Shown in pieces: positions 20,389 to 20,491 of a DNA stretch of 29,146 bases. Where the stretch lies: positions 1-29,146 of the forward strand of contig DAIDAN010000001.1 of NCBI GenBank assembly GCA_027310605.1, read 5' to 3'. Positions within the stretch are counted from its first letter, which is position 1. Each line of letters opens with the position of its first letter. Both the position numbers and the translations under genes were made by a program. This stretch comes from Candidatus Aenigmatarchaeota archaeon. Lineage in GTDB: Archaea; Aenigmatarchaeota; Aenigmatarchaeia; Aenigmatarchaeales; DAIDAN01. The notes under the pieces are model-generated. The model saw only the letters and a program-made list of their open reading frames with translations, was not told the DNA's origin and did no database searches.

Positions 20389-20491
20389 TGCACGAAAAGC
20401 TTTGCTTTTCGGCATGCCAAAATGCACGCGAACGAAGTTCGCGGCTACGCCGAAACTAAAAGTTTCGTGCGAACTGAAAGTTTTTTGTGCA
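20389..20491. repeat. Family A copy 5 (outer) with copy 6 (20423-20471) nested inside it
   Basis: Outer: T-GCACG AAAAGC ttt GCTTTT CGGCatGCC AAAA[inner]AAC tgaaa GTTTTTT GTGC-A. Inner: T-GCACG CGAAC gaa GTTCG CGGCtacGCCG AAAC taaaa GTTT CGTGC-G. Confidence 0.9.

What the first reader, a model, noticed from the sequence alone, without database searches (positions are those of the whole stretch)
20389..20491. One element nested inside another, with a compensatory base-pair change linking it to the pfdA-proximal copy
Seen: deleting 20423-20471 gives CGGCATGCC-AAAAAAC-TGAAA-GTTTTTT-GTGCA. This matches the 7465-7497 half of copy 2 at 31/33 nt, and the two differences convert a G-C pair to A-T. The inner copy has different arms. 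Inference: at least two insertion rounds, subfamilies (CGGCATGCC vs CGGCGGAGCCG types), selection on pairing, and insertion into structured DNA/RNA. It lies in the spacer upstream of mcm.
Basis: seen in the sequence. Interest (0 to 1): 0.65.

Follow-up and report, generated by a model that had tools for sequence, protein, structure and literature searches.

The report
Nested hairpin repeat that moves whole
A small two-hairpin mobile DNA repeat sits inside another copy of the same repeat upstream of the mcm gene in a tiny DPANN archaeon, and the nested 103-base pair of repeats is itself copied as one unit within and between related species.

Summary
Deleting 20423-20471 restores a complete 54-nt element. 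Its right half matches 7465-7497 at 31/33, and the two differences are the two sides of one base pair.

The family is real: 132 half-sites in 0.70 Mb, against 0-1 in shuffled genomes. The structural unit is a hairpin with one bulged base, X-GC(A)C-stem-loop-stem-GGC-X'. An element is an inverted pair of such units.

Nesting is common and site-specific. Thirteen of about 66 elements are nested (0.3-1.6 expected). Ten of them lie exactly between the two hairpins of the host copy.

The nesting probably did not arise at mcm. The same composite, with the same insertion point, recurs at G000:C99, twice in a sister species and in two metagenome contigs. One sister-species copy is 95% identical, although neighbouring genes are 75-78% identical. 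It lies in frame inside a PolB intein, and the orthologous G000 site is empty with no target duplication.

The link to the pfdA copy is not specific, because that hairpin module is among the commonest.

Best reading: a REP/BIME- or MITE-like selfish element. No RAYT/Y1 gene correlates with it, and the mobilising enzyme is unknown.

The scan had already noted this family on this window. Other DNA was not queried.

The parts
20389..20414 (.). Outer element, left hairpin unit: T-GC(A)C-GAAAAGC-TTT-GCTTTTC-GGC-A, intact
   Evidence: the DNA and RNA minimum-energy folds give a hairpin with one bulged A. The flanking T pairs with the A after GGC, as in 116 of 132 half-sites.
20415..20422 (.). Outer element, right unit, first part (T-GCC-AAAA): 5' arm cut after its fourth stem base by the inner element
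   Evidence: The same break point is seen in the composites at G000:C99, G002:C96, G002:C57 and L054/L055, and in an unrelated pair at G000:C40.
20423..20471 (.). Inner element, 49 nt, complete: T-GCAC-GCGAAC-GAA-GTTCGC-GGC-TAC-GCC-GAAAC-TAAAA-GTTTC-GTGC-G
   Evidence: The same inner type (GCGAAC arms, GGCTACGCC centre) is nested in three different outer copies at C104, C111 and C133. An un-nested relative exists in G001:C29.
20472..20491 (.). Outer element, right unit, remainder (AAC-TGAAA-GTTTTTT-GTGC-A)
   Evidence: The fold predicts that the split arm still pairs across the insert, giving a four-way junction. Pairs spanning the insert co-vary between composite copies.
7446..7497 (.).
   Evidence: It is absent from the orthologous pfdA-HD spacer of G001, G002 and metagenome contig L054.
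3434..3486 (+). Family copy (C-GCAC...GTGC-C) inside the T stem (52/53) of a tRNA gene with a GCG anticodon
   Evidence: Rfam tRNA hit at 3368-3507, 37 bits. My own reading of the junctions finds no standard bulge-helix-bulge.
8678..8731 (+). Family copy, 54 nt, read through in frame near the 3' end of an HD-domain gene; part of a larger ~120-nt repeated block
15525..15581 (.). Family copy (GGCGGAGCC centre type)
18181..20172 (-). mcm gene (context)
   Evidence: MCM, MCM_OB, MCM_lid and MCM_N domains.
20518..20886 (-). Conserved 122-aa gene whose stop lies 26 nt from the element (context)
   Evidence: It is 77-78% identical at the DNA level in G001 and G002, but on contigs not linked to mcm. 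No Pfam match.

Best explanation
The stretch is a 103-nt composite of two members of one family of small, structured, non-coding mobile DNA repeats. The family unit is a ~25-nt hairpin with one bulged base, X-GC(A)C-[R-AAA..loop..TTT-Y]-GGC-X'. An element is two such units head to head (tags outside), 47-57 nt long. In organisation it resembles the REP dimers / BIMEs / REPINs of bacteria. Elements insert precisely, as the unit X-GCAC...GTGC-Y, without duplicating the target (shown). They land or survive preferentially in other copies, mostly at the junction between the host copy's two hairpins and less often four bases into the 5' arm of the right hairpin (shown). The composite at 20389-20491 belongs to the second kind. 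It probably formed once elsewhere and has since been copied as a single four-hairpin unit to several sites and species. It reached the mcm upstream spacer already nested (inferred from its distribution). It most likely moves through a folded single-stranded DNA intermediate handled in trans by a hairpin-recognising enzyme that I could not identify (inferred). Hairpins stay perfect either because only well-folded copies are re-copied while old copies are quickly lost, or because palindrome arms are corrected against each other (inferred). The evidence does not decide whether the element has a local role at mcm, such as ending transcription of the upstream gene.
For: Family and fold: 132 half-sites against 0-1 in shuffles. 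The base before GCAC pairs with the base after GGC in 99 Watson-Crick plus 17 G-T of 132 half-sites, against 48 expected (chi-square p 8e-31). Double changes keep the pairs predicted by the two-hairpin model (GTAC..GAC three times, CCAC..GGG three times), while the bulged A changes freely to T or G. In 133 units, 960 of 964 stem positions are Watson-Crick across 80 different hairpin modules. DNA and RNA minimum-energy folds give the same model, with z -4.2 to -6.8. Precise insertion without target duplication: G002 PolB reads CAAGAG|element|AAAAAG, and the empty G000:C123 site reads CAAGAG|AAAAGG. A paralogous pair reads C148 AAGGGT|TTTCC against C114 with C-GCAC..GTGC-G inserted. Nesting: 10 centre-nested plus 3 arm-nested loci among ~66 elements. 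Expected numbers are 0.33 (whole genome) or 1.6 (non-ORF DNA), giving P 6e-17 and 2e-8. Ten of 13 at one junction gives P 2e-15. An identical inner element sits in different outer copies at C104 and C133. Composite as a unit: copies with the same insertion point occur at G000:C99, G002:C96 (95% over 103 nt), G002:C57 and L054/L055, all in unrelated flanks. Meanwhile mcm and the neighbouring gene are only 75-78% identical between these genomes. Turnover: none of the tested insertion sites is shared between species. CDS copies are multiples of three and stop-free (51, 54, 51 and 102 nt). Two lie inside inteins.
Against: No transposase is tied to the family. The Y1/HUH domain is absent from G000 (75% complete), G002, G041 and the complete genome G044. 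It is present only in G001 and G043, without family hairpins beside the G001 gene. No IS110-type gene was found, and no hit in viral contigs. No conserved target sequence emerges from the flanks. I cannot exclude that this locus is where the composite first formed and that the other copies descend from it. The preference for nesting could partly be a survival effect: if only 5% of the genome tolerates insertions, 6.6 nested copies would be expected (P 0.018). The positional bias would still remain. Single-stranded DNA rather than RNA as the folded form is inferred, not shown.
Confidence: 0.6

Rival explanations
1. In-situ nesting: an outer element inserted upstream of mcm and a second element later inserted into it at this very locus.
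For: The structure is exactly what two successive insertions would give. Inner-type and outer-type elements both exist separately. Some composite must have formed somewhere, and this locus cannot be excluded as that place.
Against: Five other composites share the same outer type, the same inner type and the same break point, in unrelated flanks and in other species. One is 95% identical. G001 has no element upstream of mcm, and synteny around mcm differs between the genomes.
Confidence: 0.12
2. An RNA-level, intron-like element: the repeats are cut out of transcripts by the archaeal splicing endonuclease and spread by reversal of splicing. That would explain copies in tRNA genes and introns.
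For: The genome has two adjacent splicing-endonuclease genes, of the kind linked to broad specificity. Only 6 tRNA genes are recognisable without intron removal. At the T-stem copy, a CGCG/CGUG helix puts the 3' cut in the right place.
Against: The flanks carry no sequence able to build the 4-bp helix of a bulge-helix-bulge in general. All four CDS copies are multiples of three and free of stops in the host frame, which is the signature of being translated rather than spliced. The fold has single-base bulges, not 3-nt bulges.
Confidence: 0.07
3. A host-functional spacer signal, such as a two-way transcription stop or 3'-end stabiliser made of hairpins with T runs, kept by selection at each site. 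Nesting would be a by-product of recombination between copies.
For: Both spacer copies in the window lie just after stop codons (13 and 26 nt). Each strand carries two T4-T6 runs. Among the 30 spacer loci with an ORF on both sides, 11 lie between convergent genes, where about 6 are expected by length. Near-perfect stems are what selection on folding would give.
Against: Copies occur inside inteins, a tRNA stem, a protein tail and other copies, where no such role is possible, yet they fold as perfectly. The single copies in a Pacearchaeota genome and a Woesearchaeota genome both lie between divergent gene starts. Sites are not conserved between species. The family is missing from 38 of 40 relatives searched in the same order.
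Confidence: 0.18
4. Assembly artefact: repeats were mis-joined by the assembler.
For: The assembly is fragmented (178 contigs) and rich in short repeats.
Against: The same nested order and the same junctions recur in an independent genome assembly (twice), in two metagenome contigs from other samples and on a second contig here. In G002 the composite keeps a 1033-codon frame open.
Confidence: 0.02

Closest known systems
REP elements, BIMEs and REPINs of bacteria (tagged palindromic units, usually in inverted dimers; Di Nocera et al. 2013, PMC3733652; Bertels and Rainey 2011, PMC3116915)
   Same: Both have a short stem-loop unit with a conserved terminal tetranucleotide. Both form head-to-head dimers with outward tags, often as heterodimers with different stems, with 1-5 bp between partners in some families. 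Complementary base changes occur along stems. There are tens to hundreds of copies, mostly between genes and often right after stop codons. Distribution is patchy and lineage-specific. Occasional in-frame copies sit in genes, and dimers are found inserted inside other palindromes (69 for the published features).
   Different: The hosts are archaea (DPANN). The tag is GCAC, not GTAG or CGTC, and it is partly inside the stem, with a bulged A. No RAYT gene tracks the family (as for the published CGTC families, which also lack one). Copies nest inside one another at a defined point, and a nested composite propagates as a unit.
Rickettsia palindromic elements (RPE) and the MJRE repeats of Methanocaldococcus jannaschii (from my own knowledge; RPE-4/6 are also treated in PMC3733652)
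   Same: Small palindromic repeats that are tolerated inside protein-coding genes as in-frame, stop-free insertions and are also found in RNA genes.
   Different: Sequence and unit architecture are unrelated. Here two of three independent coding insertions lie in inteins, which are removed from the protein anyway.
MITEs and IS200/IS605-derived palindrome-associated elements (PATEs)
   Same: Non-autonomous, about 50-100 nt, with inverted ends and hairpin-forming ends. Insertion leaves no target duplication, as in the IS200/IS605 family. Nesting of MITEs in MITEs is well known in plants (my own knowledge).
   Different: No target duplication, unlike classical MITEs. No conserved 4-5-nt target next to the left end, unlike IS200/IS605. 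No parent IS with matching ends was found.
Archaeal bulge-helix-bulge introns and the 'intron transposition' described in Thermoproteales (my own knowledge)
   Same: Short structured inserts occur at unusual positions of tRNA genes in a lineage with intron-rich tRNAs and a two-gene splicing endonuclease.
   Different: The ends do not build a bulge-helix-bulge. Most copies are not in RNA genes, and coding copies are read through.

Membership tests
REP / BIME / REPIN-RAYT | Short palindromic unit with a conserved terminal tag, repeated many times | tested here: met
   132 strict units in 0.70 Mb against 0-1 in shuffles. The tag is GCAC.
REP / BIME / REPIN-RAYT | Units paired in inverted orientation (dimers) as the common form | tested here: met
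   45 strict dimers with 2-3 nt between units. True singletons are rare.
REP / BIME / REPIN-RAYT | GTAG or CGTC tag of the two published super-families | tested here: not met
   The tag is GCAC/GTGC. Published tags are described in PMC3733652.
REP / BIME / REPIN-RAYT | A cognate single-copy RAYT (Y1 HUH) gene, typically flanked by the repeats | tested here: not met
   PF01797 is absent from G000, G002, G041 and G044 (the last a complete genome). It is present in G001 and G043 only, and the G001 gene has IS200-like ends rather than family hairpins. G000 is only 75% complete.
Classical MITE | Terminal inverted repeats plus a target-site duplication | tested here: not met
   Inverted ends are present, but two empty/filled comparisons and all nested junctions show no duplication.
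IS200/IS605-derived element | Insertion 3' of a fixed 4-5-nt target; Y1 transposase or TnpB in the genome | tested here: not met
   Flank matrices show no fixed target. There is no Y1, and only a sub-threshold TnpB-like match.
Archaeal BHB intron | Two 3-nt bulges separated by a 4-bp helix at the exon-intron boundaries, with removal from the RNA | tested here: not met
   Predicted folds have 1-nt bulges. Flanks are not complementary to the ends. Coding copies are multiples of three and stop-free, so they are read through. Removal from RNA itself is not testable here.
In-frame palindromic insert (RPE-like behaviour) | Copies inside genes keep the frame open | tested here: met
   NrdD intein 51 nt; HD protein 54 nt; C119 51 nt; PolB intein 102 nt.

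The most novel reading that the evidence does not exclude
DPANN archaea of at least two phyla share a hairpin-dimer mobile element that is moved by an enzyme unrelated to the known Y1/RAYT, IS110 or DDE transposases. This enzyme targets the junction between two folded hairpins, so elements nest in one another in a self-similar way. Copying goes through a fold-back or arm-templated step that keeps stems perfect (960 of 964 pairs) while letting their sequence drift (80 modules). That would be a new transposition chemistry, or a new use of a host structure-specific nuclease.
Probability: 0.15. Interest if true: 0.8.

Novelty: new variant of a known kind. Interest (0 to 1): 0.5.

Why it matters
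REP-type hairpin repeats and their replication have been studied almost only in bacteria. The REPIN-RAYT literature I found treats them as a bacterial phenomenon.

Here an organisationally similar family fills about 0.5% of a genome under 1 Mb in an ultra-small archaeon. Related copies occur in Woesearchaeota and Pacearchaeota, and no RAYT is present.

Three features give handles on the mechanism:
- the strong, position-specific self-nesting;
- a nested composite that behaves as a new, larger replicator shared between species;
- near-perfect stems despite high sequence diversity.

The family also shows where insertions can survive in a streamlined genome: other repeats, inteins, a tRNA stem and protein tails.

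For annotation, these repeats create spurious ORFs, break contigs and hide tRNA genes in DPANN genomes assembled from metagenomes.

Tried and rejected
1. Terminal-helix model (GCAC pairs with GTGC; GGC with GCC). Rejected in favour of two bulged hairpins. The flank base co-varies with the centre base, variant tags change in the pairs predicted by the two-hairpin model, and energy folds agree.

2. Bulge-helix-bulge at the ends. I read the junctions by hand for the tRNA T-stem copy and for centre-nested copies. No 4-bp helix is correctly placed, and the T-stem case is off by one base.

3. Rule that insertion falls four bases into the 5' arm of a hairpin. It fits the nested, T-stem and tRNA-like cases but fails generally: 4 of 37 sites against 7% ± 4% in controls.

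4. Fixed target sequence. None appears in the flank matrices.

5. Transposase search. Y1_Tnp, TnpB zinc ribbon and IS110 DEDD were searched in own and sister genomes, and Y1_Tnp in four Woese/Pacearchaeota carriers. Nothing correlates with the family. Genes next to the single copies in two low-copy genomes are ordinary enzymes.

6. Viral contigs. No match to the unit or to the composite junction.

7. Rfam. No family matches the elements. The tRNA model also failed to recognise the intron-rich tRNA-like repeats, so I could not place the C114/C148 insertion on a tRNA map.

8. Apparent orthologous in-CDS copies (window HD gene, C119, G002:C99). These are separate insertions of a larger ~120-nt block, not orthologues, so I drew no in-situ compensatory-evolution claim from them.

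9. Crude ORF map for spacer context. It was too noisy for more than a weak trend, because elements create spurious ORFs.

10. MAFFT alignment of the four composites (A1). It misaligns hairpins with paired indels, so I compared pairs by hand rather than with the count of structure pairs.

Full report
**What is at 20389-20491**

The sequence reads as follows. A left hairpin unit comes first: T-GCAC-GAAAAGC-TTT-GCTTTTC-GGC-A (20389-20414). The start of a right unit follows: T-GCC-AAAA (20415-22). Then comes a complete 49-nt element (20423-71). The rest of the right unit closes it: AAC-TGAAA-GTTTTTT-GTGC-A (20472-91).

Deleting 20423-20471 gives a 54-nt element. Its right 33 nt match 7465-7497 at 31/33, and the two differences are the two partners of the closing pair of the hairpin. 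Uninterrupted elements about 90% identical to the rebuilt outer copy over its whole length exist at C170 and C133.

The neighbouring ORF 18181-20172 (minus strand) is MCM, and 6962-7432 is a prefoldin subunit. The element lies 216 nt upstream of the mcm start. It is 26 nt past the stop of a conserved 122-aa gene.

**The family**

The assembly has 701,568 bp in 178 contigs, 46% G+C and 75% completeness. It holds 132 half-sites of the form GCAC + perfect hairpin + GGC. Five Markov shuffles gave 0, 0, 0, 1 and 0. Forty-five strict full elements of 47-57 nt were found.

Rfam has no matching family.

**The fold**

It is not the best model.

- The base before GCAC pairs with the base after GGC in 99 (Watson-Crick) plus 17 (G-T) of 132 half-sites, against 48 expected (p 8e-31).
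- Variant tags change in the predicted partners. GTAC goes with GAC three times and CCAC with GGG three times. The fourth base (A) changes to T or G with no partner change.
- Energy folding as DNA or RNA, on either strand, gives the same result: two side-by-side hairpins, each with one bulged base, with z-scores of -4.2 to -6.8.

An element is therefore an inverted pair of bulged hairpins with 0-1 spacer base. For the nested copy, the fold keeps the split arm of the outer right hairpin paired across the insert, as a four-way junction.

Stems are strikingly clean. The closing pair is G:C 97 times, A:T 32 times and G:T once. In 133 units, 960 of 964 stem positions are Watson-Crick, although there are 80 different hairpin modules.

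The shared hairpin (AAAAAC-TGAAA-GTTTTT) is among the commonest modules, so it is not a special tie to the pfdA copy.

**How elements insert**

Two empty/filled comparisons define the inserted unit as X-GCAC...GTGC-Y with no target duplication.

- Among paralogous tRNA-like repeats, C148 reads AAGGGT|TTTCC, and C114 has C-GCAC...GTGC-G between those halves.
- In the sister genome G002, a composite lies in a PolB gene at CAAGAG|...|AAAAAG. The orthologous G000:C123 site reads CAAGAG|AAAAGG.

No fixed target sequence appears in the flanks. A tentative rule, that insertion falls four bases into a hairpin arm, failed a control.

Ten loci carry an element exactly between the two hairpins of another copy (GGCA|TGCC). 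These are C93, C94, C101, C104, C105, C111, C123, C133, C138 and C157.

Three loci carry one four bases into the 5' arm of the right hairpin. These are this one, C99 and C40.

With about 66 elements covering 0.5% of the genome, 0.33 nested copies are expected (P 6e-17). Within non-ORF DNA, 1.6 are expected (P 2e-8). Ten of 13 at one junction gives P 2e-15.

If only 5% of the genome tolerated insertions, 6.6 would be expected. Part of the excess may therefore be survival, but the positional bias remains.

An identical inner element sits in different outer copies at C104 and C133, which marks separate events. All four GGCTACGCC-type copies in this genome are nested. An un-nested relative exists in G001.

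G001 has two centre-nested loci and G002 none.

**The composite is a unit**

The same outer type, inner type and break point recur at several places:

- G000:C99:6364-6465;
- G002:C96:17427-17528, which is 95% identical over 103 nt;
- G002:C57;
- two metagenome contigs, Ga0208045_1001279 and Ga0163199_1000962 (L054 and L055).

All lie in unrelated flanks.

By contrast, mcm and the upstream gene are only 75-78% identical between these genomes and are not syntenic.

The G002:C96 copy lies in frame inside the intein of a family B DNA polymerase. It adds 34 codons with no stop, and the G000 site is empty.

Between composites, stems differ by paired changes:

- a paired A:T indel in outer-left and in inner-right;
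- G:C to A:T in inner-left;
- AAC/GTT, AGT/ACT and ATTC/GAAT in the outer-right arm beyond the insert;
- the closing pair that spans the insert.

G001 has no element upstream of mcm, and the G002 contig ends at the mcm start.

The most economical history is that nesting happened once elsewhere and the four-hairpin composite then spread, reaching this spacer already nested. The 95% identity across species suggests recent exchange or strong constraint. I cannot tell which.

**Turnover and tolerated sites**

The pfdA-proximal copy is absent from the orthologous spacer in G001, G002 and L054.

Coding copies are all multiples of three and open:

- 51 nt inside the LAGLIDADG domain of the second intein of NrdD (C55);
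- 54 nt in the tail of an HD protein (window 8678-8731);
- 51 nt at C119;
- 102 nt in the PolB intein.

This argues that the elements are translated rather than spliced out, and that survivors sit where damage is small.

The HD and C119 copies belong to a larger ~120-nt repeated block. They are separate insertions, not orthologues.

**Distribution**

Among 40 relatives of the same order, only the two sister genomes of the same genus carry the family: 39 and 22 half-site hits, against 81 in this genome. The reversed-pattern control gave 0 everywhere.

A scan of one genome per prokaryote species also found true dimers obeying the same flank-centre pairing rule. They occur in three Woesearchaeota MAGs and one complete Pacearchaeota genome, with 13, 2, 1 and 1 hits. 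Three bacterial hits look like chance.

Viral contigs gave nothing.

**Mechanism**

*Shown:* precise insertion of a defined unit without duplication; site-specific nesting; movement of a composite; fast turnover; read-through in genes.

*Inferred:* a folded single-strand intermediate. The evidence is a conserved single-base bulge that sets the polarity of each hairpin, as in IS608 ends, REP hairpins and integron attC sites (my own knowledge), together with pairing kept across a 49-nt insert.

*Not found:* the enzyme. The Y1/HUH domain is absent from G000, G002, G041 and the complete G044. It is present in G001 (an IS200-like gene with unrelated end hairpins) and in G043, so it does not track the family. 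No IS110 gene was found, and only a sub-threshold TnpB-like match.

An intron-like RNA route is unlikely. There is no bulge-helix-bulge, and coding copies are read through. However, the genome has two adjacent splicing-endonuclease genes, and the T-stem copy comes within one base of a usable motif.

A terminator-like role is possible for spacer copies. They lie 13 and 26 nt after stops, and there is a mild excess between convergent genes. That role cannot explain copies in inteins and tRNA, nor the two low-copy genomes whose single copies lie between divergent gene starts.

**Comparison with known systems**

The closest published description is the REP/BIME/REPIN class. It shares tagged stem-loops, head-to-head heterodimers, paired stem changes, in-frame intragenic copies, dimers inside other palindromes, and families without any transposase (PMC3733652; PMC3116915).

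This family differs in several ways. Its hosts are archaea. Its tag is GCAC, with a bulged A. No RAYT is associated with it. It nests regularly at a defined point, and a nested composite propagates.

I rate it a new variant of a known kind. The scan had already noted the family on this window. This report adds the fold, the nesting statistics and the history of the composite.

Noticed in passing
G000 whole genome; window 3368-3507: The Rfam tRNA model finds only 6 tRNA genes in a 75%-complete genome, three of them 134-141 nt long. Most tRNA genes must be hidden by introns or other inserts.
   Followed up: partly
window 8661-8753; also G000:C119:1621-1739, C123:19382-19502, G002:C99 (L030:1471-1590), G001:C46 (L024), L054:1305-1385: A ~120-nt block (GGGGAACC + family element + RCGTTGGGGGCGAAGCCCCCCG) recurs at unrelated sites and in both orientations. 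In G001 it carries a further centre-nested element. It looks like another composite that moves as a unit.
   Followed up: partly
L059 (G000:C55:7500-12800), element at C55:10976-11026: An anaerobic ribonucleotide reductase (NrdD) gene has two inteins. A family element lies in frame inside the LAGLIDADG domain of the second intein.
   Followed up: yes
L012:1501-1602 (G002:C96) and L060 (G000:C123): A family B DNA polymerase carries an intein in both species. Only the G002 intein carries the 102-nt composite, 34 codons in frame.
   Followed up: yes
window 4948-4976, 24926-24954, 17007-17034 (reverse): A second repeated spacer motif (…GATTTGCAGGAACGC) occurs here. Its core, CGTTCCTGCAAA, directly abuts 6 of 37 un-nested elements elsewhere in the genome. 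It may be a preferred target or part of a larger unit.
   Followed up: partly
G000:C148, C94, C106, C102 (empty) versus C114, C178, C117 (filled); loci L014-L020: A family of tRNA-like repeats (3' ends reading ...CACCA) is about 90% alike. Some carry a 40-nt insert in a GGGGG/CCCCC stem and some carry the hairpin element. The Rfam tRNA model does not recognise them.
   Followed up: partly
L025:1456-1908 (G001:C25): An IS200-like gene (Y1_Tnp, 150 aa, 50.5 bits) has long imperfect hairpins at both ends. It is found in G001 only among the three sister genomes.
   Followed up: partly
G000:C98:6555-6836 and 7248-7508 (L001, L002): Two adjacent genes each carry a tRNA-intron endonuclease catalytic domain. 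This suggests a two-subunit enzyme of the broad-specificity kind.
   Followed up: no
L041, L044, L045, L048, L049, L051 (Woesearchaeota MAGs): Elements of the same architecture in Woesearchaeota are often flanked by a further short motif (ATGCGCTTT) on one or both sides.
   Followed up: no
G000:C138:2482-2580 and C157:2326-2426: Two centre-nested composites share their architecture and right flank (GCAAGTCAT). They differ in all four hairpins, and pairing is kept in each.
   Followed up: partly
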